In this document: positions 1-42,850 of the stretch, one piece after another
Position numbering within the stretch: the stretch's first letter is position 1
How the letters are laid out: every line of letters starts with the position of its first letter
Source: Chiloscyllium plagiosum
Taxonomy: Eukaryota
Direction of reading: 5' to 3'
DNA: 44,914 bases
Assembly (NCBI RefSeq): GCF_004010195.1
Contig: NC_057756.1
Location: 8,620,208 to 8,665,121, forward strand
Notes under the pieces: generated by a model
Databases searched by the model: none
Told to the model about the DNA's origin: nothing
What the model saw: only the letters and a program-made list of their open reading frames with translations
Position numbers and translations under genes: made by a program

Positions 1-372
1 TTATAGAGGTTTACAAAATTATGAGGGGCATGGATAGGATAAATAGACAAAGTCTTTTCCCTGGGGTCGGGGAGTCCAGAACTAGAGGGCATAGGTTTAG
101 GGTGAGAGGGGAAAGATATAAAAGAGACCTAAGGGGCAACTTTTTCATGCAGAGGGTGGTACGTGTATGGAATGAGCTGCCAGAGGATGTGGTGGAGGCT
201 GGTACAATTGCAACACTTAAGAGGCATCCGGATGGGTAGATGAAGAGGAAGGGTTTAGAGGGATATGAGCCGGGTGCTGGCAGGTGGGACTAGATTGGGT
301 TGGGATATCTGATCGGCATGGACGGGTTGGACCGAAGGGTCTGTTTCCATGCTGTACATCTCTATGACTCTA
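1..372 (+). mobile_element. CR1/HER1-type LINE 3' end (RT C-terminus and 3' UTR)
   Basis: Translates to TRGHRFRVRGERYKRDLRGNFFMQRVVRVWNELP, the typical CR1 ORF2 C-terminus. Ends in a CTCTATGACTCTA tail. Near-identical inverted copy at 44578-44914. Confidence 0.9.
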
Positions 373-389
373 ACACTCACAGCACTGAC

Positions 390-447
390 CTGAAACAGCA
401 GAAATAGCATTGAGCAGTGCGAGCAGTACTCCCCATTGGATGTATCT
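390..447 (-). pseudogene. Signal-peptide exon of a paralogous B7-like IgV gene (copy A); rest of the gene would lie left of the window
   Basis: ttacag|AGATACATCC...GTTTCAG|gtcagt, 58 nt, RYIQWGVLLALLNAISAVS. It differs from 35245-35302 by two substitutions. Its ATG exon is missing (see findings), so functional status is uncertain. Confidence 0.7.
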
Positions 448-526
448 CTGTAACAAGAAAACACAGTTAAACCCTTCACAACAGATTGTTGCTGGCACCT
501 CTTTGCTTCGCCACCTTCCCCAGATT

Positions 527-1370
527 CTAGATTGGAGTGGTGCTGGAAAAGCACAGCAGGTCAGGCAGCATCCGAGGAGCAGGAAAATCGATGTTTCGGG
601 CAAAAGCCCTTCATCAGGAACGAGGCTGGGAGTGCAGGTTTTGTAATTCAAAACCTGCGCCCACACCTCGTCCCTCACCCCCATCCAAGGCCCCAAAGGA
701 GCCTTCCACATCCATCAAAGTTTCATCTGCACATCCACCAATGTCATTTATTGTATCCGCTGCTCCCGATGCGGTCGATACATTAGGGAAACTGGACGCC
801 TCCTCGCAGAGCGCTTTAGGGAACATCTCTAATCAACCCCACTGCTCCATGGCCCAACATTTCAACTCTCCCTCCCACTCTGCCCAGGACATGCAGGTTC
901 TGGACCTCCTCCACCACTGCTCCCTCACCACCCGACGCCCGGGGGAAGAACGCCTCATGTTCCGCCTCAGAACACTTCAACCCCATGGCATCAATGTGGA
1001 CTTCACCAGTTTCCTCATTTCCACTCCTCCCACCTTACCCCAGTTCCAACCTGCCAGCTCAGCACTATCCTCATGACCTGTCAGACCTGCCAATCTTCCT
1101 TCCCACTTATCCATTCCACCCTCCTCTCCGACCTATCACCTTTACCCCACCTCCAGCCACCTATTGCACTCTTTGCTACCTTCTACCCAGCACCACCCCC
1201 CTCCCATTTATCTCTCCACCCCAGAGGCTCCCTGCCTCATTCCTGATGAAGGGCTCTTGTGCGAAACATCGACTTTCCTGCTTCTCGATGCTGCCTGGCC
1301 TGCTGTGCTTTTTCAGCACCACTCTAATCTTGACTCTGATATCCAGCATCTGCAGTATCCACTTTCACCT
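527..1370 (+). mobile_element. Penelope-like retroelement fragment (GIY-YIG end plus terminal repeat, with an inverted terminal piece at ~527-618)
   Basis: Decayed FHIHQSFICTSTNVIYCIRCSRC...YI(G)ETGR GIY-YIG motif. The terminal repeat (CCTGATGAAGGGC...GAAACATCGA...GCTGCCTG) is present in both orientations. Confidence 0.85.
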
Positions 1371-1487
1371 ACATGATTATTTTAAGACTGCCTGAACTGC
1401 AACCGAACAGATGACGAGCAACGAATGTATACATGTGAGGTGCAGAGTCCGCTCCTCACAGCAACAACAACTCCTCAGCCTGAAACC

Positions 1488-1498
1488 AGTTTCACTTT
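1488..1498. promoter_or_regulatory. ISRE/IRF-like motif AGTTTCACTTT in the copy A promoter region
   Basis: Matches the ISRE core AGTTTCNNTTT. Conserved in copy B at 36432-36442, just upstream of exon 1. Confidence 0.45.
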
Positions 1499-1944: not shown

Positions 1945-2070
1945 CCAAACGGAAATCGCTGGAGAAACTCAGCAGGTCTGGCAGCATCTGTGGTGAAAGA
2001 GCAGAGTTAACATTCTGAACGCAGCTTCCTCTCCCTGGATGCTGCCAGACTTGCTGTTTCTCCAGAGATT
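1945..2070. mobile_element. Short non-autonomous inverted-repeat element (probably Penelope terminal-repeat derived)
   Basis: GCTGGAGAAACTCAGCAGGTCTGGCAGCATC ... GATGCTGCCAGACTTGCTGTTTCTCCAG hairpin. Related copies at 12580-12775 and ~38360-38445. Confidence 0.6.
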
Positions 2071-18570: not shown

Positions 18571-19715
18571 AAAATGTGTTGCTGGAAAAGTGCAGCAGGT
18601 CAGGCAGCATCCAAGGAGCAGGAGAATCGACGTTTTGGGCATTAGCCCTTCTTCAGGAATGAGGAAAGTGTGCGAAGCAGGCTAAGATAAAAGGTAGGGA
18701 GGAGGGACTTGGGGGAGGGGCGTTGGGAAGNNNNNNNNNNNNNNNNNNNNNNNNNNNNNNNNNNNNNNNNNNNNNNNNNNNNNNNNNNNNNNNNNNNNNN
18801 NNNNNNNNNNNNNNNNNNNNNNNNNNNNNNNNNNNNNNNNNNNNNNNNNNNNNNNNNNNNNNNNNNNNNNNNNNNNNNNNNNNNNNNNNNNNNNNNNNNN
18901 NNNNNNNNNNNNNNNNNNNNNNNNNNNNNNNNNNNNNNNNNNNNNNNNNNNNNNNNNNNNNNNNNNNNNNNNNNNNNNNNNNNNNNNNNNNNNNNNNNNN
19001 NNNNNNNNNNNNNNNNNNNNNNNNNNNNNNNNNNNNNNNNNNNNNNNNNNNNNNNNNNNNNNNNNNNNNNNNNNNNNNNNNNNNNNNNNNNNNNNNNNNN
19101 NNNNNNNNNNNNNNNNNNNNNNNNNNNNNNNNNNNNNNNNNNNNNNNNNNNNNNNNNNNNNNNNNNNNNNNNNNNNNNNNNNNNTTGGAGGGGCGGGGTT
19201 CAAGGGCGGAGGAGCGGGAAGTGGAGGAGATGCGGTGGAGAGCATCATCAACCACATCTGAGGGGAAATTGCGGTCTTTGAAGAAGGAGGCCATCTGGGT
19301 TGTTCGGTATTGGAATTGGTCCTCTTGGGAGCAGATGCGGCGGAGGCGAAGGAATTGGGAATATGGGATGGTGTTTTTACAGGGGCAGGGTGGGAGGATG
19401 TGTAATCTAAGTAGCTGTGGGAGTCGGTCGGTTTATAATAAATGTCGGTCGCCCGCGATAGAAATGGAGAGGTCTAGGAAAGGGAGGGAGGAGTCTGAGA
19501 CGGTCCAGGTAAATTTGAGGTTGGGGTGGAAGGTGTTCGTAAAGTGGATGAACTGTTCAACCTCCTCGTGGGAGCACGAGGTAGCGCCAATACAGTCATC
19601 GATGTAGCGGAGAAAAATGTGGGGGGGGGGGTGGTGCCAGTGTAGCTGCGGAAGATGGACTGTTCCACATATTCGACAAAAGGTTTATGCCCTAAATGTC
19701 GATTCTCCTGTACCT
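18571..19715 (-). mobile_element. Penelope-like element spanning the assembly gap
   Basis: Terminal repeat at 18575-18660. Right of the gap the minus strand encodes FLRYIDDCIG and IPYSQFLRLRRICS, typical PLE RT motifs. Confidence 0.85.
18731..19185. other. Assembly gap (455 N)
   Basis: Run of N. Confidence 1.
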
Positions 19716-20059
19716 ACAAAGGGAATGTCCCACTCTCTGATTTACTGGTAATGTGGGGGACACCCAAGAGGGAAATTTTACACAAATCTATCAATGGGGA
19801 CAATGATTTTTAGAGAACAAGATCCATAGTTCAAAAACAGAATAAACCTGTTCAAAGATCAAACGGAATAAATCAAGGAGTCCGTTCTGATCTCTGACCT
19901 CAGGAGGTCAGACCAAGATGTGTATCAGTGTCAGATTTACAGCAGGATGAGGAATCACTTTGGGAGGGAGTTGTTTCAGTCCATGTCAGGGACAGTAGTG
20001 CAGTGGTTATGTTACTATGTCTAAACGTGAATCCAATCCCACATTCACCTGGGGAATAT

Positions 20060-22433: not shown

Positions 22434-22599
22434 TCAGTACTGGACAGCCCCGTTCCCCAGAAGCTTTTGTTCTCCAGACGCTCCATCCTGATGCTCAGGC
22501 GCTGTTGGCACAAGGCTCTGTGTACAGATCACCTCTCTCAAAGGATCATCATTTGGTGCTTCTTTTGGAGTGCTGCTGACCTGCTTTTTGTTACAGGTA
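22434..22599 (-). CDS. IgV gene exon 6: cytoplasmic tail and stop
   Basis: Acceptor ttctctatcctag|T in phase 2, matching the TM exon. Open for 55 codons to TGA: RTCNKK...VPTAPE...EQKLLGNGAVQY*. Confidence 0.75.
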
Positions 22600-25500
22600 C
22601 TAGGATAGAGAAACCAACAGATTGCAAATTATATTAACAATATTTAATGTAAATTTAATTAGGCCATTTAGCCCCTCAACTTTGCCTACTATCTTTAGAT
22701 GTTAAGTGACATCACGATAGGCATAAAAATATGTTGAAGACATAAGCAGGTGGCATATCTATGTAGATGGGTTAAGTGAGTGACCAAAAATCTGGCAGAT
22801 GGAATATTACCTGGGAAATTAAGTTATTCATTTTGTCAAGAAGAAAGAAAAAAGTGCAACAGTATTTGCACAGAATGACTGCAGAATTCAGAGGGATATA
22901 GGCATTCTGGTGTAAGTGACAAAAAATTGTTATAGAGACACAGCAAGTAAATTTAATGGGATACTATCTTATGGGACGAAGTGAACATAACATTAATTTT
23001 ATGCTTCAGTTATGCAAGGCATTGGTGCGACCACATGTGGAATACCATGTGCAGTTTTGGTCTCCTCATATTTAAGGATGGATATGTATACATATAATGG
23101 AGGTGATTCAGTAGAAGTTTGGACAGAACTCTTCCAGCAACCCTCACAATCCCTCCTCCCAACTTCTGGAATGTAATAATCGTAACTATCTTTAAGGCAA
23201 CAGATACAGCATGGTTACAGTTCTTCTCAAACTTTTCCCACGGTAGGTACTTGTACATTCCATGCTGCTGAGACTGGGGATTGAGGTGAGATCTTGGGTA
23301 AACTGGGGGAAGTGACCCCCTTGAAGCCAGCTCCACAGGCAAGATTCCTGCAAAATAATTAACGGTAGACTGGACACTGTCTGGATCACTGAAAAGCAGC
23401 TGCCCTGCCAAGTCCTGTTTTCTCAAATGTCAAAAGGGCCAGGGGAGGACATGAAAACTCTGTAAAGAGGACATGAAGACTCTACAAAGACTCCCTTGAA
23501 ATGGTGGCAATGTCTAGGAGAGTTTTGTTACTAATCATTCAGGATGGAGGTAACACCTTAAGATCTGTAGGTCAAGATACTACCTGTTGAGTCATGTGAA
23601 GACCCACGGCAGACTTTACATCTAGAGAGGACATTTCAGAGTGAGTGAGCAGACAATGGTGATCTTTCAGTAACAATATCATTTAGTAAACACCAGCAAA
23701 TATAAGTGCAATTTCCTCTACCTTATCACTGGACAATCCCCACCTATCAGACACCAATCTTCTGAGCCTTTACCAGGCTTTCTCCAATACAAGTATGTAC
23801 TTCCTTGAATATTCAAGATAAAAACTGCAAGTAACTCCAGGTTGTCTCACCAAAGCCTTATCCCAAGACTTGTTCATTCATGTACTACAAGTCCCTTGCA
23901 ATAACAGTCAACATGCTATTTGGTTTCAAAACTGGATAACGTGTGTGCATGCTAACTTTGTCCATCTGACCCCTTGTCTCTGAACAGCTTTGAAATGACG
24001 TTCTTTTATCTTGTTAACCTCATGTTCCCACATTATAGTCTGCCACTTATTTCCCAATCAATTGTAGACATTGTGCTAGAACCTTTGTGTCCTCTTCCCA
24101 GCCTGCACGTCTACCTAACGCAGCCCCATTAAAATTTCATTCACTATCTAGGGGACCAGTGGGTGCCGGGTGCTGCATGGTGATGGAGCACAGACTGTAG
24201 AGGGGAGGAGGCTGAGATGGGAGGCAATGGGCAAGAGCTGGATACTTCACAGGACCGGTGTTGACTGAGGCACCAAACAAATAGAAAAATAACACCTTGC
24301 CTTCAAGATTAGAGATGCTTTGCAGAAAATATCATGCGTTTACTATGGTGTGAAACGAACTACAGAAATGTTTCAGAGACTCAATTAGTCTTTACAGGAA
24401 TAGATCCAGGGAGGGCTTGGGTCAGACTAAAAAACGGGAGGCACGATTCCAAAGGGACTCCATTGTTTTTGAGGGCAAAATAGACATTTTGCAGCATCAT
24501 CCACTAAGCTCAATGTATTGCTGCACATGTTTACAATATAAGATGTAATGAAATAAAACTAGAATTAACAGTAAGAGCTTCAGAATGTTCTATAACTCAC
24601 CGTCTTATTAACGAACTGGCTATGACAGCAACATAAACGCTCATAAAGAAAACTGCAAAAGCAATTGCAGTTTTTTGATCACCAGACAGTCCAGGACCTA
24701 GAAACAGAATGAAGCCATTAACAGACTGGGACACACAAACAAAGCCAACAGCAGAGACCTTCAGCACCTAGTGTTTCAGAGCCAGCCCCAGTACAAACAG
24801 ACCCCTGGTTAATTCTAGTCCTGGAGAGATGTGGGAGGTTAGATCCGAATAATCTCTCACACACCAGACCACCCCACAGCTCGTTGCACACACACATATT
24901 GCCCCACAATGGAATTGATACATGCTTTTCAATAAAGAGAACTGGACACTGACCAGCAGCAGTCTCTGTTCATTTAAACCCAACAGCATTTGGAATTTAG
25001 CTGGAATATTTTTTAAAAATGGCTGCTTGGGAAAGTCATGGGATTGGGTGGAACAGGTTACTCCCACACTAGCATTGTTCCTTACTGCTCCCAATCCCAT
25101 CAGTTTCCTAACAGGAGTGTTCTGTGAAAATTGTACTGTTGTTACTCCCCTCACAGAAATCCAGCAATACTAAGGCTAGTGGGAAATAGGAATCCTCTGT
25201 CACAAAGCTGTTCCTTTTTTCCGAAAAGCTGTTCCTTTTCTCGACGATACTGTGTACCTGGATTTTTTTTTCAGAGGGGTCATTAACAGGCCAGGCTCTG
25301 AAACAGCTGGAAGAGCACAGCAGTTCAGGCAGCATCCGAGGAGCAGTAAAATCGACGTTTCGGGCAAAAGCCCTTCATCAGGAATAAAGGCAGAGAACCT
25401 GAAGCGTGGAGAGATAAGCTAGAGGAGGGTGGGGGTGGGGAGAAAGTAGCAGAGTACAATAGGTGAGGGGGGAGGGGATGAAGGTGATAGGTCAGGGAGG

Positions 25501-28500
25501 AGGGTGGAGTGGATAGGTGGAAAAGAAGATAGACAGGTAGGACAAGTCATGGGGACAGTGCTGAGCTGGAAGTTTGGAACTAGGGTGAGGTGGGGGAAGG
25601 GGAAATGAGGAAACTGTTGAAGCAGATGGGTTTGGTACAGGGATGAAGCCTTTTTGTTTATATGTAAACAGATGAGTCTTTAGGCCAAAGCTTTTAAGTT
25701 TTTAGAAGTAACCTAGGGGATATGGCCAGCTCTCTAGCTGAGCAGTTCAGTCCAGAACTAGTTAGGGAGTTCAGCAGTGAACTGTGTGAAGAAAGGCTCT
25801 CTCCTTCTGCCCTTCTAACTTCGACCTGTAAGCCTTGGTTTCATTTTTACTGTACTTAAGGGATTTGCTTATTGGGACTGTTGTGTATATTTGGAACAGC
25901 ATAACTAAGTCTAGTTTGGATAGACTGAGTTCTGTAGGGGTTCTTTATGTTTCATTGTGTAATTTTGTGAATAAACTTTTGTCTGTTTTAAAACCTGGTA
26001 GCTAAAACCTAGGTAACTTTCACTGTACTCTGTTATGGCCTGGGCTGTCTGCTTAAGAATGTTTTAGGTGGTTTGGCCTCATCCATAACACCTCAGTTAT
26101 AGAGTCCTCCAGGACAGAGACAGGCCCTTTGGCCCAAACTGGTCCATGCCAACCAAAAATGTTCATCCATGCTAACCCCAAATCCCTGCACTTGGCCCTT
26201 ACCTATGGATAGGTAAACCTTACCTATCCATGTATTTATCCAAATGCCTTTTAAATGTTGTTAATGTACCTGTCTCAACCATGGCAGCTCATTCCTTATG
26301 CATACCAACCTCTTAAACTTGTCCCTCAGGTTCCCTTTTATTCTTTCTCCCTAACTTTAATTTTATGCCCTATAGTACTCGATTCCCTGACCCTGGGAAA
26401 AAGACTGAGTGCGTACACCCTACCCATGCCTCTCATGATCTTATACACCTTTCTAAAAAGACCGCCTCAGCATCTTGCAGTCTAAAGGAAAGATGTCCAA
26501 GTTTGTCCTGGCAATATTCTTGTATATTTCTTCTGCATTCTTTCCAGTTTAATAACATCCTTCCAATAGCAAGGTGACTAAACCTGAACACAGTACTCCA
26601 AGTGCAGCCTCACTAATACCCTGCACAACTGCAACATAGCTTCTCAACTTCTATAGCCAATGTTCTGACTGATGAAGGCCAGTGTGCCAAAAGCCTTCTT
26701 CACTGCCCTGTATACCTGTGACTCCACTTTCAGAGAACCATGCATCTGAACTCCCTCTGTTCCACTACACTCCTTAAGGCCCTACCATTCACCATGAAAC
26801 TCCTACCTTGATTTGACTTTCCAAAATGCAAGACCTCACATTTATCTATATTAAACTTCACTTGCCATTTCTTTCCCAGCTGATAAAGGTGCTGCAATTT
26901 CTGATAACCTTCCTCACTATCCACGATACCCCCTATTTTAAATGTCATCTGCAAACTTGTTAATCATGCCTTGTACATTCTCATCCAAATCATTGATATA
27001 GATAACAAACAGCAAAGCACCCAGCACCAACCCGTGAGGAAAAGCACTAGTCACAGGCCTCCAGTCTGACAAACATACTTCCACTGTTACCTTCTGTGTC
27101 CTACCATCAAGCCAATTGTGTATCCAATTTGCCAGCTCCCCCCCCCCGTATTCCATGCAATCTAATCTTCCACAGCAACCTGCTACATGGAACTTTATCA
27201 AAGGCCTTACAGAACTAGTATATATTGATTTCAGTATCGGAGGGACAGGAAGAGGAACCTCAAACCGAAATAACAATTCTAAGGAGTTTAAGCAGCAGTT
27301 CTAGGTAAGTGACCCACACCATTCACTGAATCATTCTTTAGTGAAATATCACAGCATTTCGAACCTTCTAATATTCCACCCTGTCAATCCAGCATGATCC
27401 AATGGAAGAGCTGAAAACACATGCAGTAGTTTAGAAACAGATTTACCTGGTACAGGTGTGTTCAGTCTAGCTGTATCAATTCGCTCTAAAGAAAACATCA
27501 GGTGTTTAGTACAGTGTGCGAAACAAACTGCAGTTATGTTCAGAGACTCTGTCGGGCTTTAGGGAAACACATCCAAGGAGGAATGAGGCTCAGGTCAGAC
27601 TGATCAGGAATGGAATCAGGAGTGAAAATTCCAACAGAATTGGATGTTTTCCAGAGTGACCCTGAGCAGGATCATTCCCAGCAGCTTACATCCCCCTGTG
27701 GAGAGAATCCTCACAGGATCCTGGGCCGACTGGGATACACTTCCAAGGTCAGTGCACTGGGTCTTGGAAAGGCTGCTTGGGAGAGGCTGTGGGTCCCACC
27801 TCCTGCAGCCCAACCTCTGGCGACAGAAGGACCAGGTTTCTGGGGAGGAAGTGCAGGTTCTCGCACTGTTAACCCCTTCCATCACCCAGTTTGGTAGCTC
27901 TGTCCTTCAGGGCTCAGCCAGCTCACTTCATTACTGAGTGACCCTTGGGGATGGACAGGGAAGACCCACTCAGTAGATTCTATGTCTGTGTGACTCTCAG
28001 TGCTTCCCCCAATTGGGGTTGAACATTGTGGGGTACCCATTGATCAGCTGAAGGAGGGCAGTAGTTGAGGGCCTATGTTTCACCTGCGACTAAGGGACTT
28101 CAATGTTGAGGAGTCCCAAGGAAAATCCCACTGGACGGCATACTGCCATTTCTGGTGGGTGAGACAAAGCTTTTACAGGGATGTTGATAGCAGAATCTGG
28201 GATACAAGGCTGATACCACGTCACACAGCTCTCAACTTGGACACCAGTACTTAAATGGCTGGATTTAAAGACAGTATCCTGATTTCTTGCCTAGGTCACA
28301 GTTTAGCGGTTTGACACAAACTGATGTTTAACTGCCCTCTGACCTATTCGGCCAATTCACTCAGCTTAATCAGGGACTGGAGTCACATATAGCCCAGACC
28401 AGGTAAGAACAGCAGGTTTCCTTCCCTAAAGGGACATGAGGGAACCAGTTGGGGTTTTACAACAATCCAACAGCTTCATCATCACTTTTATTGGGACCAA

Positions 28501-31500
28501 CTTTCTATTTCCAGATTTTTATTGAATAAAACTAAATTTAAATTCTGGAAGTGTCATGGTGTGATTGGAACTCAGTCTCTGAATTATTAGTTTTAGGTCT
28601 CTCTGAATTACTCTACTAGTAACATAATCTCTGCATTAATCCATCTGTAAAATTCAGTGATTAAACACAGAGTACCTGACTGAGAAACTGCTTACCTGCT
28701 AGCGAGAGATGGATAAAATCAGCTTGCTCCAGATTATAGCCCACAGTTATTCTCTTGTAAATGTAACACACATATTCATCCTGGTCTGACTCCCTGAGGT
28801 CAGAGATCAGAATTGACCAGTTGCCTTGTTCCAGCTGATCCTTGAATAGATCTGTTCTGTTTCCAAACCGTGCGTCTTGTTCTGTCAAATCATCACTCCC
28901 ATCAATGAACTTCCATAAAATGTCACGCTTTGATATGCCCCACACTACCAGTAAATTGGAGACTGGGACATGTCCTTTGTAGATACAGGGCAGCAAAATC
29001 TGCTCTCCCACGATCCCAATAACTGAGACAGGTGAGTCACCTGGAAAAGATAGGAAGTATTTATCCACAGATAGAACCTCCCTGCTGGTAATTACATTCT
29101 CAAGCCTCTCATGGTTACACTGCAATGCTGGATTTACAAGAAACTCTGATCAGTAACTTATTGTTTCATTTCTGGGGAAAGGTTAAAGCTCCGACACTAA
29201 AGGGACTTCAACTAAAATGCATTTTTAGCTAGATATTTGTAAACACAGTTTTCTATTTTACACATGATGGGAGAACACATCGGGATAGCCATCAGCACCC
29301 TTTGGGAGAAATGTGCAATTTTCATCCCTGTATTTAAGAAAAGGTATACTCGGTAGGATGTACTGTTGGAGGCTGTTCAAAAGAGATTCATAAACAAGAA
29401 CAGCTAAAGAAGTTAGGCCTTTATCCATCAGATTTTAGAAGAATGGAGTACGATCTAATTGAAACAAAGAGGATTCTGAGGGGGCTTGAAAGGGTACATA
29501 ATGAAAAGATGCTTCCACCAGTGAAAGAATAGGCTGCAGAGGGTCATGGAATCATACAGAACAGGTTTTTCAGCCCATTGAATCAGCACTGACCTATCTG
29601 CATTAATCGTATTTTCCAGCACGTGGCCCATACCCCTGAGTATTATGATATGTCAAATGTTCATCCAGTAATTTTGGAGGCTGAGAGATTTTCAGCCTCA
29701 ACTACCCTCCCAAGTGCTGTATTCCAAATTCCCACCACTTGCAGGAAAAATACTTCCAGAAGTTCCCTCAAATCTCTTGCTTTTCACTTTAAAATTATGC
29801 CCTATTGGTACTGCCCCTTTGACTAAGGGGAACAGCTGCTTCCTGTCCATGCCCCTCATTCTTTAACACCTTGATCAGGTCTCCTTCAATCTTCTCTCCA
29901 AAGAAAGGAGTTTGAGCTTATTCAGCATCTTTTCATTGCCAAACTGCTCTATCCCAGGAAATAATTCTGTGACTATCATGGTGAATCTTCTCTGCGCCAC
30001 ATCCTTACTATTGAGATCAGAACTGCACAAAGTACTCCAGCTGTGGCCTAACCAAAGTTTTGTACAGCTGCAACATAATCTCTGCTCTTATATTTTACAT
30101 CGCATATGATAAAGTATGCCTTCTCAAACCATATAAAAGGGATGTCTTCTTCCAGAGGGTAATGAATGTCGAGAATTTATTTTTAGATTCCCTACAGTGT
30201 GGAAACAGGCCTTTTGGCCCAACAAGTCTACACAGACCCTCTGAAGAGTAACCTACCCAGACCCATTTCCCTCTAACTAAAGCACTAACACTACGGGCAA
30301 TTTAGCATGACCGGCACATCTTTGGACTGTGGGAGGAAACCGGAGCACCCAGAGGAAACCCACGCAGACACTGGGAGAATGTGCAAACTCCACACAGTCG
30401 CCCAAGGCTGGAATTGAACCTGGATCCTTGGTGCTGTAAGGCGGCAGTGCTAACCACTGAGCCACCATGCCGCCCCAGGAAGTGTCCCTCATTCACCACA
30501 TTATACTGGAGGAGTATTAGTATTCCACATGGCCTCATCATTTTGCCCTTAAATTATTCTTTTGTTTTCATATTCACTACATGATGTGGGTGTCACTGGC
30601 TGGCCCATCGCTAGTTTCTTTGATAAGTTGATGGGTTGAGCTGCCTTCTTGAACAGCTGCAGTAAATTTGCTTTAGGTACAACCACAATCACAATGCCAT
30701 CAGGGAGAAGTTTCCAAGATTTTGACCCAGCAACACCGAAAGAACGACAATATGTTTCCAAGTTAAAGGTGTTTACTTCCTTCCTCTAGTGTAATGAATG
30801 TGAAATATACAAGAGAGATCTTACTCTACTTCTCACATGTTAAATTTGGATTTAAATCCAAAAGACCAGTTTCAGTTTAAAGACAAGACAACAAAAATAT
30901 TCAGCCAGTCCTGCCTACCAATGTTCACATTACACATCAATGGACAATGGGCATGTATTTAAGGTAAGGGGCAGAAAGTTTAGAGGAGATGTGAGGAAAT
31001 GTGTTTTCAGTCAGAGGGTGGTGGGAATCCGGAACTCACTGCCTGCAAAGGTGCTAGAGGCAGAAACCCCATAACATTTAAGATGTTTTTAGATGTGTAC
31101 TTGCAACACCACAGTGTGCCAGGCCACAGGCCAAGTGCTGGGAAATGGAATTAGAATATTAAGATATTTGACCTGCACAGGCTTTAGGTTGACAGGCCTT
31201 TTTCTGTGCTGTCGATCTCCAACATCGAAAATAAACATGTATGATAGAATCATGAATCAGAATGTTACGGTATGAAAGGAAGCCATTCAACCCATCATGT
31301 CTATACCAGTTCCTGAAAGAATTAATGCCACTCTCCAACTCCATTTCCATAGTTCTCTAACTTCATCCCTTTCAAATATATCCAGCTGTACTTTGAAACC
31401 GCCTATGGAACCTGCCACTATAGAGTCATACAATCATACAGCACAGAAACCAGACCCCTTGGTCTAAGCAGTCCATGCTGAATATAATCCCAAACTAAAC

Positions 31501-34500
31501 TGGTCTCACCTACATTTTCCTGGCTGATGCCCCTCCAAACCTTTCCTATTCATGTATCTATCCAAATGTCTTTTAAACATTGGAACTGTGTGCACATCCA
31601 CCACTTCCTCAGGAAGTTCATTCCACACGCGAACCGCCACTGTGGAAGAAATTTATTCCAATGTCTTTTTTTAAATGTCTCTCCTCTCACCGTAAAAATG
31701 CACCTCCTTGTTTGGAAATCCTCCATCCTAGGGAAAATACACCTATTAACCCTATCTACACTCTTCATTATTATATAAACCTCTATAAAAGGTCATCTTT
31801 CAACCTCCTACTCTCCAGTAAAAAAAGTCCCAACTGTTCTTCATAACTCAAACCTTCATACTCGGGCAAGAATTACATCCTGATAAATCTCTTCTGAATC
31901 CTCTCTAACTTAATAATGTCCTTGACTCTCCTAAATCTAAACAAATCCCAACAACTGAGTAAAGATGTTTCTCCTCATCTCACTCTTATCTCTCTTGCTG
32001 AGGCTCTTGAAATTGTGACCCCTATATGGATAGTTTTCCCCTTGTTAGTTGACCTTGCATACTGAATGCTTCCAATATTGTTAAATGGCTCTACATAATG
32101 ACTGCTTTTCCACCTTATTAACCCATTACCCTTGCCTCCAGCACCCCATTGTTAACTGTAAGTTCTCATCTGGTCTCAGTCACGCTCAACTGAACCACTT
32201 GTTTCACAAAACTCAGAACTCAACTCTTTCCCTATCTGCTCGTACCAGATACATATTCTCATTAGAGTACTGGTTGATCAAGAGGCCCACATAATCAATG
32301 TAAAAACACATAATAACACGTAATATTCGGGGTGTGTATACATCATTGCTAATACTTTATTTACAGCATAAATCACTTAACTAACAATGCAACTTTGCCT
32401 TAAATAAAACTTAGTGGCAGAGAGCCTTTTTAATGGCAACTTCAACTGACTACTTAGATATCGTGGAGATTGCAAATACAGTAAACTTCCAATTATCCGT
32501 TTGCTCACTGAGCTAGTGAGTTTGTTCTCAGACATTTCGTCACCATGCTAGGTAACATCAGTGAGTTTCCGGTGAAGAGTTGTTGTTCTATCTCACTTGC
32601 TATTTACGTGTGTTGGTTTGTTGCGGTATTATCATTTCTAGTTCTGTTTCCGAGAGGTTGGTATGTGGTGTCCAGATCTGTTAGTTAATGAAGTTACAAT
32701 TTGAAAACTATGCCTCTAGGAATTGCCATGTGTCCCCTTCTTTGACCTGTCCTGGGATGGATGCACTGTCCTAATCGAACTGGTGTCCCTCTTTGTCTGT
32801 GTGTACGGAAACTAGTGATAGTTGGTCATGTCTTTTGGTGGCTAGTTTCCTGCCGTTTGTCCAATATAATGTTTGCTGCAGTCCTTGTAGGGTATTTTGT
32901 ATATGACATTCATTCTGCTGGCTGTGAGTATGAGGTCCTTTAACTTCATCAGTAGTTGTTTTAGTGTGGTAATAGGTTTATGGGCTACCATGATGCAGAG
33001 AGGCCAGAGTAGTCTGGTGGCCATCTCTGAAATGTTTGATATATGGTAGTTTTCTATCAGGTGTTTTAGTTTTCGTTGCATCCAAGGCCAAACAAAGACA
33101 CGCGCAGGAATTTCTAGACCCCTGGCATTCAAGACTCAGCCCACTCTATCCACTCCCCCCAGGGATTCCTTAACAGCAAAGAAACCAAGACAGAGGAGAA
33201 CAAGGTAATGATCTACTTTGACACGATAGCACTGTTCACATCAATAAACATCATTCTAGCCAAAGAAACAGTAGCCTCACTGCAAGACAAACCAGTGATA
33301 CAAACACCCAACACCGCCAACTCCATCAGCAAGGACAGCATCTTCAACCTACTGGACTGGTGTCTCACAACCCACTTTACCTTCAACAAGATATGCAAAG
33401 AAACGGACGGGACGCCTATGGGATCACCAATGTCAGGTCTTATCACAGGAGCAGGTATAGAGATGTTAGAACGAACAGCCCTTCCTACAATCCAGCCTAA
33501 GCTTTGGGTCAACTATGTGGATGACAGCTTTGTCATCAAGAAAAGTGGCAAACTTGAAGAAAACCACAAACACAAACAACATCCTCACTGGTAGAAAATT
33601 CACCAAAGAGGAAGAGAACAATAACCAATTCCCCTTCTTGGACGTCATGGTAGAACAAAAAGCTAATGGAGAACTGCAGACCAGTGTTTACAGGAAGGCC
33701 ACACACCGTCCAGATGCTGAACTACAGATGCAACTGGTTGTGGAGGGAAAACACCGGTCTTGGAGTCAGAATCGGGATTCAGTGACAATGACAGTTTATT
33801 GCACAGGGAAATACCGGAGATCCGGGAAGAGAAAGACACCGACAGCACAGTGGTCAGCTGCAAGTCTTCTCTCGATATGGAGCACATGTCAAGAAACTTT
33901 TATCCTTCTTGTGATACAATAGGTCAGTGATGAGATTATTGTCTTTGTAACAAGGTTTGTTTATAGTAATCATTGCAGAATTGTTGATAGTTTTGATAGT
34001 CTTTGTCAGTTCCAGCACAGCTCTATAAGAGGTGTTGGCTGGACCCAGACACTTCAGCTGACAATGTTTGTTACTCATGTATTCTCTCCCCCACCCACCT
34101 TAAACTAATCAACTGGATTGTGAGTGCGTTGTGCTGGCATTCTGGTGGCTCCAGGCAGTGTCTGTATCTGCTCTGTTTCTCTCCATATTATGATCCGGGG
34201 GCCACCTTGTGTATCCGTGTGCCTAGTGTCACCCACAAATGGAGCCGCTTCAGGAAACTATTTAAATGAGCCACAATACAGTGCAGCACCCTGCAACTAC
34301 GAGAAGCTGAGGAGAAACACCCATATAACAGATTCAGGAACAACAGTTTATCCAATAAGTGGAGTCCGCTGATTCCTACACAATGAATCAAAACAGTAAG
34401 ACACAACACGCCCAGAGACTCTAGTGACTATACCATACAAAGATATTTCAGAGACGACCACCAGACTATTCCTAGGCATCGTGGTAGCCCACAAAGCTAC

Positions 34501-36150
34501 AACCACACGAAAACGACTACTGCTGAGGTTTAAGGACCCCATACCAACAGCCAACAGAACAAATGTAATATACAAATACCTTGCAAGGACTCACATTGGA
34601 CAAACCAGCAGGAAACTAGCCACCAGGATACATGAGCGCAAGCTAGCTAACAAAAACATGACCAACTATCACTAGTTTCCATACACACAGATGAAGAGGA
34701 ACACCAGTCGATTGGGACGATGCATCCATCCTGGGACAGGCCAAACAAAGATGTGCGGGGATTCCTTGAGGCCTGGTATTCAAACTGTATTTCCATTAAC
34801 AAACCAGTCTGGACCTGTTTTACTAACCTCTCAGAAACAACTGGAAATGATATCGCTCCCCACAACCATTCAAGACACATTGCAAGCGGGACAGAATACC
34901 AACGTTTCAGCGGAGGTTCACTAAAGTTACCTAGCATGGTGACAAAACAGCGGCAAACAATCCCACCAGCTCAGTGAGCAAACTGAAAACTTGAGTGACA
35001 AACCATCTCCAAAATCTCAAACAGTCAACCTCTTGTCATTTTAGGTATATAATTTTGACAGTTAAGCAAGAGCACCAGTTTACAAGGTGCTGGTTAAATA
35101 AAAAACTTACGATCCTAATTATAGTAATTCAATAACAGGACCCACTCAGTCCACACAGCACCTTAAAGCAAGGTGAACTCCTGATTCCCCCCCACCCCCA
35201 ACCTTTGGTTACAGCTGTAAAGTTCCAACACTCTCAGCACTGACCTGAAACAGCAGAAATAACATTGAGCAGTGCGAGCAGTACTCCCCATTGGATGGAT
35301 CTCTGTAACAAGAAAACACAGTTAACCCCTTCACAACAGATTGTTGCTGGCACCTCTTTGCTTCACCACCTTCCCCAGATACCAAGCCTTTCCTTTTGTG
35401 ACCAGACGTTGGGGTGAGAGTAGCAGAGCAGAGAGGGCTTGGTGACAGGTTCCAGAATCTGTAGGAGCGACTCCTGTTCCTGGAAACAAACTAAAGGGAA
35501 GGGGCAGGATCACAGTGTTCCTTCATCTGCAAACTATTTATTGATAGCGAGCAAAATTGGGTGGAGGATTGATTACCCTCACTGTTAGGGAGACCAGGTC
35601 TATCAGTGCGGAGGAAGGAATGGAACCACAAGGAGAAACAACACGTCAAATCAGTTAATAAAAAGCAGCTAATCCCCAGCACTGCGCAAGTTCACACACA
35701 CACACACACCCCGTCTCCGTTAGGAAAGTGAAATCACTATTTATTTCGGCAGAGCCCCGTTGCCACCCCGGTCTGTCCCTCCCTTCCCTCCATCATAATA
35801 GCCTTCTGCTCTTTTCATTTCCCCACTTCGTGTCTGTTCTCCAACCCCACCAGACATGGGGATGGGAGGAGTGCGGGATAATGGGGAGGAATCAGGAACG
35901 GTCCAGACACCAGTCTGAGAGAAGTTGCTGGGGATGAGGGGTGGTGAAACGTCAGAAACACTATTATTTCTTCTAACAAAACTCGGAACGAACTCGAAAC
36001 GTTAACTCTGTTCTTATCTCTGTAAAGCTTGCTGTGTTTCTGCGGCACTTTCACTTTCCATTTCCGCGAAGCGTTGCTTTTTTTATTCCCCCCCCCCAAC
36101 AACTGCGGTGCTGCCAAGCAAATACATACCTGCATCTGCTTTCCGTCCAT
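22434..36150 (-). CDS. Single-IgV B7/butyrophilin-family-like type I membrane protein (CD276/VTCN1/HHLA2-like V domain); whole gene model, 6 coding exons, 241 aa
   Basis: Exons 36150-36130, 35302-35245, 29040-28696, 27485-27447, 24697-24601, 22599-22434. All introns are GT-AG and phases 0,1,1,1,2 join into one 726-nt ORF: MDGKQMQRSIQWGVLLALLNVISAVSGDSPVSVIGIVGEQILLPCIYKGHVPVSNLLVVWGISKRDILWKFIDGSDDLTEQDARFGNRTDLFKDQLEQGNWSILISDLRESDQDEYVCYIYKRITVGYNLEQADFIHLSLAERIDTARLNTPVPGPGLSGDQKTAIAFAVFFMSVYVAVIASSLIRRTCNKKQVSSTPKEAPNDDPLREVICTQSLVPTAPEHQDGASGEQKLLGNGAVQY*. Confidence 0.8.
22690..23130 (+). mobile_element. Old CR1-type LINE fragment (intronic)
   Basis: TGGCAGATGGAATAT and LVRPHVEYHVQFWSP-like motif. 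Confidence 0.7.
24601..24697 (-). CDS. IgV gene exon 5: transmembrane helix
   Basis: tttctag|GT...AGACG|gtgagt. GPGLSGDQKTAIAFAVFFMSVYVAVIASSLIR is a hydrophobic stretch followed by basic residues. Confidence 0.85.
25306..25622 (-). mobile_element. Young Penelope-like 3' fragment / terminal repeat
   Basis: Reverse complement resembles ~1010-1320; carries an intact hammerhead-like core. Confidence 0.85.
25351..25385 (-). ncRNA. Minimal type I hammerhead ribozyme motif in a Penelope terminal repeat
   Basis: Minus strand ATTC-CTGATGA-AGGGC TTTT GCCC-GAAAC-GTC-GAT: both core boxes, stem II GGGC/GCCC and a GUC triplet. Confidence 0.6.
25623..26090 (+). mobile_element. Solo LTR related to the Gypsy LTR (5' end cut by Penelope)
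   Basis: Ends CCATAACA like 13930-13937 and shares TGGCCA..TCTC..GCT and AATAAA.TT..GT.T..TTAAAAC blocks. No PBS follows. Confidence 0.7.
26098..27215 (-). mobile_element. CR1-type LINE RT and 3' end
   Basis: WIHNWLDGRTQKV...SDWRPVTS..PHGLVLGALLFVIYINDLDE...KFADD and WQVKFNIDKCEVLHFG. Confidence 0.9.
27447..27485 (-). CDS. IgV gene exon 4: 39-nt stalk exon
   Basis: gttttctttag|AG...CCAG|gtaaat, phase 1-1, ERIDTARLNTPVP. Confidence 0.65.
28696..29040 (-). CDS. IgV gene exon 3: immunoglobulin V-set domain, B7/butyrophilin type
   Basis: ttttccag|GT...GCAG|gtaagc, 345 nt, phase 1-1. LPC, C-strand W, QDARFGNRTDLF...GNWSILISDL..SDQDEYVC; N-glycosylation sequons NRT and NWS. Confidence 0.95.
29270..30090. 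mobile_element. Old CR1-type fragments (+ 29270-29545, - 29550-30090)
   Basis: VQFSSLYLRK / FRRMEYDLIET-like on +; TTTAAAATTATGCCCTA and CAGAACTGCACAAAGTACTCCAGCTGTGGCCTAACC on -. Confidence 0.65.
30186..30475 (-). mobile_element. HE1-type SINE
   Basis: Full head-to-tail match to the other copies. Confidence 0.9.
30940..31215 (+). mobile_element. CR1-type 3' fragment
   Basis: FKVRGRKFRGDVRKCVFSQRVVGIRNSLP. Confidence 0.8.
31420..31920 (-). mobile_element. CR1-type 3' fragment
   Basis: MKSVDRVN..IFPRMEDFQTR..FTVRGETFK. Confidence 0.85.
32495..35000 (+). mobile_element. Second Penelope-like family: RT (33190-33720) and GIY-YIG (34280-34990), with an inverted GIY-YIG/terminal copy at 32495-33080
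   Basis: FDTIALFTSI, GTPMGSPMSGL, WVNYVDDSF, FLDVMV..TSVYRKATH; NVIYK...HIGQTSRKLATRIHE; minus-strand NVIYKIPYKDCSKHYIGQT. Interrupted by unrelated sequence at ~33735-34280. Confidence 0.9.
35245..35302 (-). CDS. IgV gene exon 2: signal peptide
   Basis: ttcttgttacag|AGA...TCAG|gtcagt, phase 0-1, RSIQWGVLLALLNVISAVS; in frame with the IgV exon. Confidence 0.85.
35693..35709. repeat. (CA)n microsatellite
   Basis: CACACACACACACACAC. Confidence 0.9.
36130..36150 (-). CDS. IgV gene exon 1, coding part (MDGKQMQ)
   Basis: agaATGG Kozak context and CAG|gtatgt donor in phase 0, within a locally CpG-rich segment. The 5' UTR probably extends to ~36300. Confidence 0.75.
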
Positions 36151-38360: not shown

Positions 38361-39044
38361 TATGGAGAGAAAGCAGTTAACATTTGAATTCAGCTTCCTC
38401 TCCATAGGTGCTGCCAGACCCGCTGATTTTCTCCAGCAATTTTTTTATTCACTTATAAGAAGTGGGTGTCGCAGGCTGGCCAGCATTTATTGTCTGTCCC
38501 GAGCTACTTTCTTTTGTTTGTTTCAGATCTCCAGTTTGTTTTGTTTGTGAATTTTTCACGCAGCAAGTAGTTCGGGTGAGCAGCTCACTGTTGTGGCCGA
38601 GGCAGTTTCAACTGAGACATGCAAGAGGGCATGGGATTGACTTTTGGACAGGAGTGGACTGCAGGGAGGGGAATAGGCAGGAGATTGAGACAACAGGGTG
38701 TGTAGCAACATAATAATTCTTGACATTTAGCATCCTGCTGTCTGCTCAGTAACCAACCAACAGGAAATCGAATGTTTAATAACATTTCCCCTAAACCAGT
38801 GATCACATTATCTTGATAGTTTCAGTTCACTGAATTGAATCTTCAACCATTAACCTTCCCCCTGTCTTGACAGCAGCTCTATTTCTGCTGAAAACAGTGT
38901 CCCCAAATCATGGTCACACAGCACCCATTCCCATCCTTCCCCGTCCCAGCTTCCACACTCTTGCTGATCTCCCATGTTTTAAAACTTCACACAGGGGGGA
39001 ATGGGCATTGTTGGCTAGGTGCCCATCCCGTGTGGCCTGGAATC

Positions 39045-40680
39045 CTAGAATCATACAGAATGGCCCAACCAGTCCATGCTAACCATAATTCAAAACTAAA
39101 CTCTTAAACATTGGAATTGTACCCACATCCACCACATCCTCAGGAAGTTCAATTCCACGTGTGATCCACCCTCTGTGTAAAAAAAATTTGCCTCATGTCT
39201 TTTTTAAGTCTCTCTCCTCTCACCTTAAAAATGTGCCCCCTTGTCATGAAATTTCCCAACTTGGGGAAGAGTCAAGAATGTGTTGCTGGGAACGCACAGC
39301 AGGTCAGGCATCATCCAAGGAGCAGGAGAAAAAACTTTTTCGGCATAAGCTCTTCATCAGGAATTCCTGATGAGGGCTTATGCCCGAAACATCGATTCTC
39401 CTGCTCCTTGGATGCTGCCTGACCTGCTGTGCTTTCCCAGCAACACACTCTCGACTCTGATCTTCAGCATCTACAGTTCTCACTTTCTCCATCTTGGAGA
39501 AAACGCAACTACCATCAATTCCATCTATACTTCATTATTTTATAAACTCTGTCAGGTCACCACTGAACCTCCTATGCTTTAGTGAAAAAAATCTCAACCT
39601 ATTCAGCCTTTCTTTATAACTCAAACCTTCCATACCCGGCAACATCCTGGTAAATCTCTTCTGAACCCTCTCCAGCTTAATAATATCCTTCCTGTAATCG
39701 GGTGACCAGAACTGGACCCAGTAGTCCAGAAGAGGCCTCACTAATGTCCTGTAAAACCTCAACATAATGTCCCAAGTCCTATACTCAAAGGACTGAGAAA
39801 TGAAGGCAAGTGTGCCTTTTTAACAATCCTGACTTTATGTGACACAAATTTTAAAGAATTATATACCTGCATCCCTCAGTTCCTCTATTCTACAACACTG
39901 TCTAAGGCCCCACCGTTAATTGTATGAGCCCGACCCTTGTTAGTTTGTTGTACCGAAATGCAATACCTTGCATTTATCCAGATTGAACTCCATCTGCCAT
40001 TTTTCAGCTCATTGACCCATTTAATCAAGATCCTTTGTAACCTTCTTCACTCTTCATTGTTTTGGTGTCATCTCTGAACTTACTAACCATGCTTTCTATA
40101 TTCTCATCCAAATCATTTGCATTAATGACAAACAAAAGAGGACCCAAAAACCAATCCTTGTGGAACACCACTGGTCACAGGCCTCCAGTCTGAAAAGCAA
40201 CCCTCCACCATTACTCCCTGTCTCCTGCTGTTAAACCAATTATATATCCATTTGGCAAGCTCACCCCTGAATCCCATGCGATCCAACTTTACAAATTAGT
40301 CTACAATGTGGAACCTTGTCAGAGGCTTTACTAAAGTTTAAATGAACATCGTCAGCTTTATTGGTAACTTCCTCAAAAAACTCATTTAAGTTTGTGAGAA
40401 ATGATTTCCCTCGCACAAAAGCCATGTTGACTATCCCTAATCAATTTTTGCCTCTCTAAATGTCCTATCTTTTATAATCACCTCCAACAACTTACCCACA
40501 ACCAAAGTCAGACTCTCAGGTCTGTAGTTCTCAGGTTTCTCCTTACAACCTTTCTTAAACAAAGGTACAACATTAGCAGACTGCCAATGAACAGGCACCG
40601 CACCCATAGTTACAGATGAAAGAAATATTTCTGCAAAGGGATTCATAATTTCTGCCCTTATTTCCCACAAATTGAGGGAT
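39045..40680 (-). mobile_element. CR1-type LINE (RT to 3' end), interrupted by a Penelope hairpin
   Basis: WQSANVVPLFKKG.KEKPENYRP.SLT.VVGKLLE and YRTLVRPLLDYWVQFWSP.YRKDIIKLERVQKRFTRMLPG. Confidence 0.9.
39268..39492. mobile_element. Palindromic pair of Penelope terminal repeats
   Basis: Inverted arms centred on TCATCAGGAATTCCTGATGA (39354-39373). Confidence 0.85.
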
Positions 40681-42537
40681 ACATTAGATCGGGGTGAGAC
40701 AGTTCAGAGTCAACCACGTTGCTATGGGTCTGGAATGACATGTAAGTAAGACTGGTTAAGGACAGCAGACCACTCCCACAATACCCCCACTCCTAACTCC
40801 GGCCTTTCCCCCCTTTATACAGTCCCCCCCCCCCGTTTACTCAGACTGATGAAATCTTTGGAAACAACAAATAAGCTTGGAATTGTTTGGGAGTTCCTGA
40901 GCAACTTCCTCTGGTTAATTTTGGAATTTCCCCACATTGTGCTAAAAGCTGCTTCTCCGTTGAAGGGATTGGAGTAAAACAATAATGTTAAGTGCGTACT
41001 TCCAACAAACTGGTGATCCAGTGCTAAGGCTGGGAGAGGGGGAAGGGACAGGAATTAAGACCCTCCTCTGTACAGTGTGGGTCTCCCTGTGCCCAAGTCT
41101 GATCCTGATCCGGCTCCCGGTTCTGGGAAAGGACCTACAGATACTTACTGTCAATGTCTTCCACCCTGGGAAAGAAAGGGAGGGTGGAAGAGGGAGGGAA
41201 ACTCTCCCTCATCACCTCTTTGCTCAGGGGAATGGATGTGGGTCCTGCTAACAGGAATTACAATTCATCAGCATTTGGGAGTGAGGAAAGATGATGGGAA
41301 AGTAAGTTGGGAAGAGCATGGGAGAGAGCAGAAAGAAAAACTGAGAGTAGGGAGCGATTCAGGAGAGTGGGGGAGGGAGACAGATTGGGGCAGAGATCCG
41401 GGTGGCGAGAGGGGAGAGTGGGTAGGGAGGATAGGAGAAGGATTCAGACTGAAGAGGAGGCAAGAACGGGTTGGCAGATGTTGAGAATGAGAAAGGGATC
41501 AGGGAGAATGGAGAGGCAGAGAGTGGGGATGAAGGTGGGTTTGGGTGTTCAGTAGAACAGCTGCAAATACTGGACTGGACCAGAGATGGAGAGAATAGTT
41601 GAGACAGGGCAGGAAGTGTTTTGGAGATGTGAGGGGAGAAAGCACGTGGAAGGAAGGAAATTGTCTTGGATAACATGAAAACATGGTTGGATCTAGCTGG
41701 AGAAGATAGGGAGATAACAACTTTGCTTTCTACTGGAAATGGTATGTTTTATTCCTGGTCAGTTTGGGGGAATAGCTGCTCAATATAAACCTGGAATTTT
41801 CTGATTTGTCCTTGTGTCTCTCCTTGTGGTTTCATTTCTCCCTCCATACTGACAGGCCTGGTCTCCCTCTCAATAAGGGCAATGAATCCTTGACTTAAAT
41901 TTCCTTATTATTTCTAGATCAGGATAATGACAGAAGACACTCTACTGGATGATATTCCTACCCTTTCCTTCCCACTGCAGTGTTCCGTTTGTTTCTGTAA
42001 ACTGTTAATGGGTGAGTGGAGTTTCTGGAAGTATCATGCACTCCGTGCTGTATTTGAACAGGGAACCAGTGAGAAAACATGATATAGAAAATCATGCAAC
42101 TTTTAGGAACTTGGCACACCTTGCAGCTGGAGGACTGCCAAATATCTGAACTATAAGATAAATGAAAATTAAGAATTTACTTTTAAAAAGCAAGCAGAAA
42201 AGAGGCTTTTTTGAATAATGGAAGACACTGTCACGGAAACAGGAAAAAGTCAAAATAGCAACACATACACAGGGAGAACAGCCATCTTAGAATACAAAAA
42301 GATTGATTTCACCACTAACTCTGTCTGAAAATTTGAGACAAAGACACAAAGTAAGTTGTAAGTACAGTTTTTAAAGTCTTATTTGATTGAATATCCAACT
42401 GATTTTTAAGCTGGTTATAAACATTGTGCACACATTTAAAGTAGAATAGTCATGTTGTAACTGTCTCTGATATTCTATCACACAGTATTCATTTCTATAA
42501 TGTAATTTAAATTGATTGTTACAATAAACATTCACAA

Positions 42538-42850
42538 GCAATTTAGAAAAGCTGGGGCTTTTTTCCCTGGAGTGCTGAAGGCTGGGGGGTGACCAGGTAG
42601 AGGTTTACATAAAATCATGAGGGTCATGAATAGGGTGAATAGCCAAGGCCTTTTTCCTAGGGGGAAGAAGTCCAGAACTAGAGGACATAGGTTAAAGGTG
42701 AGAGGGGAAAAATTTAAAAAGGACTTGAGGGATAACTTTTTCATGAGAGAGTGGTGCATGTATTGAATGAGCTACCAGAGGAAGTGGTTGAGACTGCTAC
42801 AATTACAACATTTAAAAGGAATAGAGTTGGGTGCATGAATAGAAAAGGAA
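42538..42850 (+). mobile_element. CR1-type fragment shared with copy A
   Basis: Collinear with 4258-4565. Confidence 0.85.

What the first reader, a model, noticed from the sequence alone, without database searches (positions are those of the whole stretch)
22434..36150. Intact single-IgV B7/butyrophilin-like receptor gene lacking the usual IgC domain
Seen: six GT-AG exons with compatible phases give a 241-aa SP-IgV-stalk-TM-tail protein; the ORF track shows only the V exon. Known: the Q..RF..RT.LF...L..GN.S..I..L...D...Y.C pattern is typical of B7/BTN V domains, and most B7 and BTN proteins are V+C (MOG and VISTA are single-V exceptions). Inference: this is a lineage-specific cartilaginous-fish B7-like immune ligand or receptor in a tandem cluster, with no clear mammalian orthologue. 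I found no IgC or B30.2 exon in the introns.
Basis: partly seen in the sequence, partly recalled or inferred. Interest (0 to 1): 0.7.

Follow-up and report, generated by a model that had tools for sequence, protein, structure and literature searches.

The report
Shark V-only B7-like surface protein
This intact, spliced bamboo-shark gene, already in public gene models, encodes a surface protein with one B7-type variable domain and no constant domain; it is one copy of a clustered family found so far only in sharks and likely acts as a ligand for an immune-cell receptor.

Summary
Six GT-AG exons give 241 aa, identical to RefSeq XP_043539193.1. Spliced contigs from three studies join exon 2 to V, V to stalk and stalk to TM, leaving no room for an IgC exon. 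Lack of IgC is the family plan: 0 of 72 shark homologues has a B7-type C domain. The gene lies in a tandem cluster (7 intact V exons, several broken) between an IRG GTPase and a KCNN channel, near nectin and Siglec genes, resembling human 19q13. The V fold is B7-type: CD86 Z 17.9, ICOSL 17.1, B7-H4 16.3; it does not group with shark butyrophilins. The tail has no tyrosine motif and the TM no charged residue, so ligand is likelier than receptor. Paralogues differ mainly on the predicted front binding face, with dN/dS below 1. C-less B7-like proteins are also common in bony fish, so the architecture is not rare. The scan already reported a two-V member of this cluster (e1-9930591). I found no paper on the family, but two key B7 surveys were unavailable. 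Verdict: real, modestly interesting shark variant; partner unknown.

The parts
36130..36150 (-). Exon 1, coding part (Met1-Gln7); about 210 nt of 5' UTR implied upstream
35245..35302 (-). Exon 2, hydrophobic core of the predicted signal peptide
   Evidence: joined to the V exon in contigs of 4 of 4 runs
28696..29040 (-). Exon 3, B7-type IgV domain (two Cys; N-glycan sites N87 and N100)
   Evidence: covered by spliced contigs
27447..27485 (-). Exon 4, 13-aa stalk
   Evidence: joint 27485-28696 in 3 of 4 runs
24601..24697 (-). Exon 5, single transmembrane helix with no charged residue
   Evidence: hydropathy; joined directly to the stalk exon in 3 of 4 runs
22434..22599 (-). Exon 6, 54-aa cytoplasmic tail and stop; no tyrosine motif; family-conserved acidic dileucine-like stretch near the end
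19703..19958 (+). Broken paralogous V exon (frame change and stops)
369..1494 (-). 5' part of a sister gene: copy of exon 2 (96% over 369-525) and of the 5' region (95% over 1379-1494); the next V exon on this strand, left of the window, is interrupted

Best explanation
This is an expressed six-exon shark gene predicted to make a type I surface glycoprotein with one B7-type V domain on a short stalk, which likely works as a ligand that a partner receptor on immune cells reads through the V domain's front (GFC) face. Shown: exon structure, three splice junctions, absence of IgC, family and cluster membership. Predicted: B7-type fold, signal peptide, one TM helix. Inferred: (1) The front face is the binding site, because paralogues differ there while carpet-shark orthologues keep it. 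(2) Each paralogue therefore has its own partner or affinity, and two-V paralogues hold the binding domain further from the membrane. (3) Signalling happens on the partner cell, since this tail lacks tyrosine motifs. (4) The conserved acidic dileucine-like tail stretch sets surface level by sorting or uptake. The partner is most likely a CD28-family or similar Ig receptor; it is not identified.
For: Fold: AlphaFold model pLDDT 94.5. Against 48,161 chains the top 9 are all B7/BTN domains: CD86 Z 17.9 (rmsd 1.3, 107 aligned), ICOSL 17.1 (2.0, 113; tied), B7-H4 16.3, B7-H3 16.1, PD-L1 16.0. Sequence searches rank CD276, B7-H4 and PD-L1 first, and Foldseek ranks B7-H4 and PD-L1 first. Trees: the 71 family V rows form one clade (SH-aLRT 98). 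In a 47-row tree the family sits with a shark V-C protein whose PDB hits include CD276, CD80, ICOSL and CD86, apart from the BTN-like and the B7-H3/H4/HHLA2-like groups (support 87, long branches). Variation across 71 V domains peaks at positions 34-40 and 87-108, while 58-82 is mostly under 1 bit. Orthologue V identity is 95, 91, 79 and 74%, against 60-67% for five paralogues. The tail has no YxxPhi and the TM no charged residue. This genome has CD28/CTLA4-like and CD28H-like V exons. Neighbours include nectin-like, Siglec/MAG-like and IRG genes. B7 proteins are CD28-family ligands (PMC11599192, passages).
Against: Identity to any human B7 V is only 19-27%. Methods disagree on the nearest B7: CD86/ICOSL by VIA-align, CD276/B7-H4/PD-L1 by HMMER and Foldseek. 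CD4, CAR, JAML, MPZ and sodium-channel beta domains follow within 1.5-4 Z units. The genome holds a separate V-C gene that looks more like CD80/86/ICOSL and could serve the CD28 receptors. Tissue of expression is unknown. The variable segments were chosen after seeing the alignment, and synonymous sites are equally elevated there, so the pattern may reflect gene conversion of the framework rather than selection on a binding face.
Confidence: 0.55

Rival explanations
1. An adhesion or auxiliary-subunit protein, working like MPZ, JAML, MOG or sodium-channel beta subunits: the single V pairs with itself, a paralogue or the neighbouring nectin, or modulates a membrane partner in cis, with no role in lymphocyte co-signalling.
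For: Single V, TM and short tail is the architecture of these proteins (recalled). Sodium-channel beta-4, JAML, MXRA8 and MOG appear in the profile hits at E 4e-10 to 1e-7 and at Z about 14. The D-E back sheet is nearly invariant across 12 species, as a shared interface would be. A nectin-like gene lies about 120 kb away.
Against: All B7 matches outrank these in both sequence and fold searches. Tandem turnover with several broken copies is more typical of immune families (established knowledge).
Confidence: 0.2
2. A pathogen-driven decoy or entry-receptor family: front faces diversify to bind or escape microbial adhesins, as in CEACAM or Siglec clusters.
For: Birth-and-death cluster with 7 intact and at least 4 broken V exons. 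Variation is concentrated on one face. Siglec-like and nectin-like genes are neighbours.
Against: Pooled dN/dS is 0.52 in the variable segments and 0.40 elsewhere, with no pair above 1 over the whole exon. This gene's V is 74-95% conserved across carpet sharks. I saw no activating/inhibitory pairs: no YxxPhi in this tail and no charged TM residue, and none evident in the 18 aligned members.
Confidence: 0.15
3. A signalling receptor in its own right, using the conserved tail stretch, the juxtamembrane Cys or the terminal Tyr to recruit adaptors.
For: The last 23 or so tail residues are conserved across five shark orders, and the tail is 93-94% identical in the two closest orthologues.
Against: No ITIM, ITAM or YxxPhi. 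The terminal Tyr is Leu in whale and zebra shark orthologues and His in most paralogues. Several annotated members lack the tail stretch altogether.
Confidence: 0.08

Closest known systems
CD86 (B7-2; 5YXK), ICOSL (6X4G), CD80 (1I8L)
   Same: Best fold matches (Z 17.9, 17.1, 15.8); weak tree grouping with a shark V-C protein that hits these; type I membrane protein predicted.
   Different: No IgC; about 20-24% identity; multi-copy cluster; neighbours resemble human 19q13, not the CD80/86 or ICOSLG loci (human positions recalled).
B7-H3/CD276, B7-H4/VTCN1, PD-L1
   Same: Best sequence matches (profile E 6e-20, 5e-18, 4e-13) and top Foldseek matches.
   Different: No IgC; other shark V exons, not this family, form the group that looks B7-H3/H4/HHLA2-like; no one-to-one orthology.
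Butyrophilins, MOG and chicken BG
   Same: Related V domain (Z 14-16); MOG and BG are single-V (recalled).
   Different: No B30.2; no second hydrophobic segment or heptad tail; the BTN-like V exons of this genome (mostly on C37) form a separate clade.
RefSeq shark models XP_043539193.1 (identical), XP_072409719.1 and about 70 relatives, auto-named CD276-like, MOG-like, ICOSL-like, CD86-like or SCN4B-like
   Same: Same gene and family.
   Different: The names are automatic and contradictory; none of the paper searches returned a description of the family.
C-less V or multi-V B7-like proteins of bony fish (P0176 Prochilodus, P0186 Triplophysa, P0120 Acanthochromis)
   Same: V-only ectodomains; P0176 and P0186 fall in the same weakly supported group.
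   Different: Best single domains score at most about 70 bits against the family V profile, versus 195 for a full shark member V; orthology not shown.

Membership tests
B7 family | N-terminal V-set domain of B7 type (sequence and fold) | tested here: met
B7 family | [quoted passage not shown] | tested here: not met
   V-stalk-TM spliced directly in 3 of 4 runs; 0 of 123 intron frames hit an Ig family; 0 of 72 family proteins hit a B7-type C profile below E 0.03. Filed as B7-like, not as a canonical member.
B7 family | Signal peptide and single TM helix (type I) | tested here: met
   Hydropathy shows one N-terminal and one TM segment; a prediction, not a localisation
B7 family | Binds a CD28-family receptor and co-signals T cells | not testable with these tools
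   needs a binding or functional assay
B7 family | Orthology to a named B7 gene by tree and synteny | tested here: inconclusive
   Separate long-branch clade with unresolved sister group (AU p 0.36); no human sequences in the trees; neighbours are IRG, nectin, Siglec, KCNN
Butyrophilin / BTNL | Cytoplasmic B30.2 (PRY-SPRY) domain (recalled as usual, not universal) | tested here: not met
Butyrophilin / BTNL | V domain groups with BTN-like V domains | tested here: not met
   the genome's BTN-like V exons (label by resemblance) form a clade at 95-97 support that excludes the family
MOG | Single V plus a second hydrophobic cytoplasmic segment (recalled) | tested here: not met
   single V present; no second hydrophobic segment after the TM
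VISTA (B7-H5) | Single V with extra cysteines and a long C-C' loop (recalled) | tested here: not met
   only the two canonical Cys in the V exon
Paired immune receptors (CD300, TREM, NITR type) | ITIM/ITAM tail or charged TM residue for an adaptor (recalled) | tested here: not met

The most novel reading that the evidence does not exclude
Sharks evolved their own multigene bank of C-less co-stimulatory ligands from the CD80/CD86/ICOSL lineage, placed in a 19q13-like block between IRG and KCNN genes. Gene conversion keeps the V framework uniform while each paralogue, this one included, holds a distinct, long-conserved front face matched to one of the several shark CD28-family receptors.
Probability: 0.2. 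Interest if true: 0.65.

Novelty: new variant of a known kind. Interest (0 to 1): 0.36.

Why it matters
CD80 and CD86 are poorly conserved outside mammals, and other molecules may fill their role (PMC13262535, passages). Sharks have an enlarged CD28 receptor set whose receptor-ligand pairings still need study (PMC11599192, passages). A defined, expressed, shark-wide family of B7-type V-only proteins gives a short list of candidate ligands that can be screened directly. It also corrects about 70 database entries that carry five or more contradictory names. The single-V architecture itself is not surprising.

Tried and rejected
(1) Complex prediction of this V domain with the shark CD28/CTLA4-like V from C7: 'no answer', scores 0.01 and 0.00 against a mark of 0.34; alignments were not used and controls were not folded. 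It is no evidence either way. (2) X-linkage: a passage places X at chr43 in this species (10.1101/2025.02.26.637739); if contig numbers follow chromosome numbers (assumed), C47 is not X. (3) Hidden or decayed IgC exon: a 210-nt open candidate in intron 3 and similar ones in introns 2 and 4 hit no Ig family. Three C-domain queries found nothing below E 0.05 in 645 kb. That test is weak: the C2 exon of the nectin-like gene scored only E 6.1. Low-depth unspliced contigs (depth 2-7, against 50-139 for the spliced form) lie in intron 3 and do not join the exons. (4) Positive selection: not seen. (5) SMG9 as a synteny marker: family PF10220 returned only matches on C28 covering the whole SMG8-length profile, under a stricter first look; uninformative. 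The KCNN exon scores higher with SK2 than with KCNN4 (103 vs 87 bits), so its identity as KCNN4 is not shown. (7) No ray, chimaera or bony-fish member among 71 word-index hits or the best 150 of 4,369 HMMER hits; both lists are truncated, so absence is not proved. (8) Identity of L013 unresolved. (9) Flajnik 2012 (PMC3709836) is not held. (10) Look-ups of earlier findings by sequence and by near place returned nothing.

Full report
Gene model. The six minus-strand exons are 36150-36130, 35302-35245, 29040-28696, 27485-27447, 24697-24601 and 22599-22434. All introns are GT-AG with compatible phases, and the product is 241 aa: predicted signal peptide, V domain, 13-aa stalk exon, one TM helix and a 54-aa tail. 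It is identical to RefSeq XP_043539193.1, 'uncharacterized protein LOC122544203', Chiloscyllium plagiosum. Orthologues of the same build exist in C. punctatum and Hemiscyllium (241 aa each), zebra shark (240 aa) and whale shark (partial model); V identity is 95, 91, 74 and 79%.

Splicing and the IgC question. I laid 4 of the 24 listed runs on 27300-29150. In X1, X5 and X15 (three studies) one contig covers the V exon, skips 1,210 bases with CT..AC ends and covers the stalk exon. Its loose ends match the TM exon and exon 2 exactly. X6 shows exon 2 to V only. So the main transcript runs exon 2-V-stalk-TM with nothing between. Contigs drop rare isoforms. However, 0 of 123 intron frames of 30 aa or more hit an Ig or SPRY family, and three B7-type C queries found nothing below E 0.05 in 645 kb around the gene. 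That last test is weak for distant C domains, and about 10% of the region is N.

Family. Searches returned 71 homologues plus P0209. All named ones are sharks: 12 species in 5 orders; one EukProt entry has no species. Of these, 51 have one full V, 14 have two, and 6 have none or a fragment. None of 72 has a B7-type C domain, and none of 27 scanned with Pfam has a C1-set or CD80-like C2-set hit. In HMMER's search of 1.84 billion representatives, the best non-family domain among the listed hits scores about 69 bits against the family V profile, and the best V exon elsewhere in this genome about 70, versus 195 for a full member. C-less relatives are common: 106 of 131 listed non-family matches lack a C hit (list biased to multi-V proteins), and the ESM Atlas returns many chordate clusters of 206-256-aa V-set proteins.

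Cluster and neighbours. The window is G000:C47:8620208-8665121. Between about 8.58 and 9.00 Mb there are 7 intact V exons, in three single-V and two two-V arrangements, plus at least 4 broken ones. Tail-exon matches number 7 on C47 and 5 on other, high-numbered contigs. On the left lie an IRG GTPase (about 8.567 Mb), a nectin-like V+C2 gene (about 8.52-8.53) and a Siglec/MAG-like V exon (8.427). On the right are a 7TM fragment and a KCNN channel gene (about 9.12 Mb). I scanned only 144 and 148 selected frames out of 1,593 and 857 non-repeat frames, so genes may be missed. Human IRGC is at 19q13.31 (PMC1297648, passage), and the mammalian order is Kcnn4-Smg9-Irgc (10.64898/2026.10.14.758906, passage). 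That Siglec, MAG and nectin-2 genes lie in 19q13 is recalled. The block therefore resembles 19q13, but the KCNN4 identity and SMG9 are not shown.

What the V domain is. The model is confident (pLDDT 94.5). VIA-align ranks CD86 (Z 17.9, rmsd 1.3), ICOSL (17.1), B7-H4 (16.3), B7-H3 (16.1), PD-L1 (16.0), a BTN complex (15.9) and CD80 (15.8); CD4, CAR and others follow from 15.6. HMMER puts CD276, B7-H4 and PD-L1 first, and Foldseek B7-H4 and PD-L1. Quick ML trees (no bootstrap, no human rows; 8 duplicate rows and broken exons dropped) make the family one clade (98-99). This gene groups with its carpet-shark orthologues (96, 87); a link to lamniform V domains (93) is not recovered as such. The family is outside the BTN-like clade. 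It falls, at support 87 with long branches, with a shark V-C protein resembling CD80/86/ICOSL/CD276 and with two C-less fish proteins; an AU test neither rejects nor shows that sister group (p 0.36).

Pattern of change. Over 71 V domains, variation peaks around the C-C' region and the F-G hairpin, and the D-E stretch is nearly fixed. Among the 7 intact V exons of this genome, pN is 0.26 vs 0.07 and pS is 0.42 vs 0.17 in those segments against the rest; 0 of 10,000 codon shuffles reached either gap. Codons with the same residue differ in 132 of 528 vs 118 of 1,155 comparisons. dN/dS is 0.52 and 0.40. The segments were picked after viewing the alignment and the pairs are not independent. The simplest reading is gene conversion of the framework with retention of paralogue-specific front faces; positive selection is not shown.

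Mechanism. The protein is most likely a ligand. The front face would bind an Ig-type receptor on another cell, as B7 proteins do (established knowledge). The two glycan sites fall on the conserved D-E side (inferred from strand assignment). The tail has no tyrosine motif and the TM no charged residue; its conserved acidic dileucine-like end would control sorting (motif recalled). CD28/CTLA4-like and CD28H-like genes are present in this genome, but the partner is unidentified. I put this at 0.55, adhesion or auxiliary subunit at 0.2, pathogen decoy at 0.15 and signalling receptor at 0.08.

Literature. Seven searches on shark B7, butyrophilin and Ig-cluster terms listed no paper on this family. 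I saw passages of PMC11599192, PMC13262535, PMC10751288, PMC6795676, PMC1297648, 10.1101/2025.02.26.637739 and 10.64898/2026.10.14.758906, and passages plus section 11 of PMC7677710, which lists chr47 among fast-evolving, immune-gene-rich chromosomes. Flajnik 2012 and Hansen 2009 I saw only as reference entries. No supplements were read; gene tables there, or those two surveys, could mention the family.

Verdict. A real, expressed, already annotated gene; a B7-like but not canonical B7 protein; one member of an apparently undescribed shark family. New variant of a known kind, interest 0.36.

Noticed in passing
window 19703-19958 (+): Broken paralogous V exon, opposite in orientation to the gene.
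   Followed up: partly
window 369-1494 (-) and G000:C47:8608852-8609226: Recent duplicate of this gene's 5' part (95-96% identical); the next V exon on that strand is interrupted by a short insert with stops, so it is likely a pseudogene.
   Followed up: partly
window 2005-4567 vs 38375-42848: Blocks 75-92% alike in the same orientation and about 36-38 kb apart, probably the unit of the tandem duplication.
   Followed up: no
G000:C47 8.59-8.97 Mb, seven V exons: Synonymous divergence is 2.5-fold lower in the V framework than in the C-C' and F-G segments, and the intron just upstream of the V exon is near-identical in five of seven copies; this suggests gene conversion.
   Followed up: partly
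P0067, P0068, P0070, P0072, P0163, P0168: Annotated family members keep the TM and tail but have no V, or carry a different cysteine-containing ectodomain exon; P0057 has that exon plus a V. The ectodomain looks modular.
   Followed up: no
P0077 (basking shark XP_078389634.1): Model fuses a family V-TM to a PRDM7/9-like protein; probably an annotation join.
   Followed up: no
window 24601-24697: This gene and its carpet-shark orthologues have a glycine-poor TM, unlike the glycine-rich TM of most paralogues (12-34% identity over that exon).
   Followed up: partly
window 36206 and 36260 (-): Two upstream ATGs open short out-of-frame ORFs in the implied 5' UTR.
   Followed up: no
L091, L093 and L011 (G000:C12, 51.9-52.1 Mb): Two CD28H-like V exons lie next to a B7-type V exon that groups with a frog HHLA2-cluster protein, a possible receptor-ligand linkage.
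   Followed up: no
window 10572-10987: AT-rich minisatellite with a 15-16-base unit.
   Followed up: no
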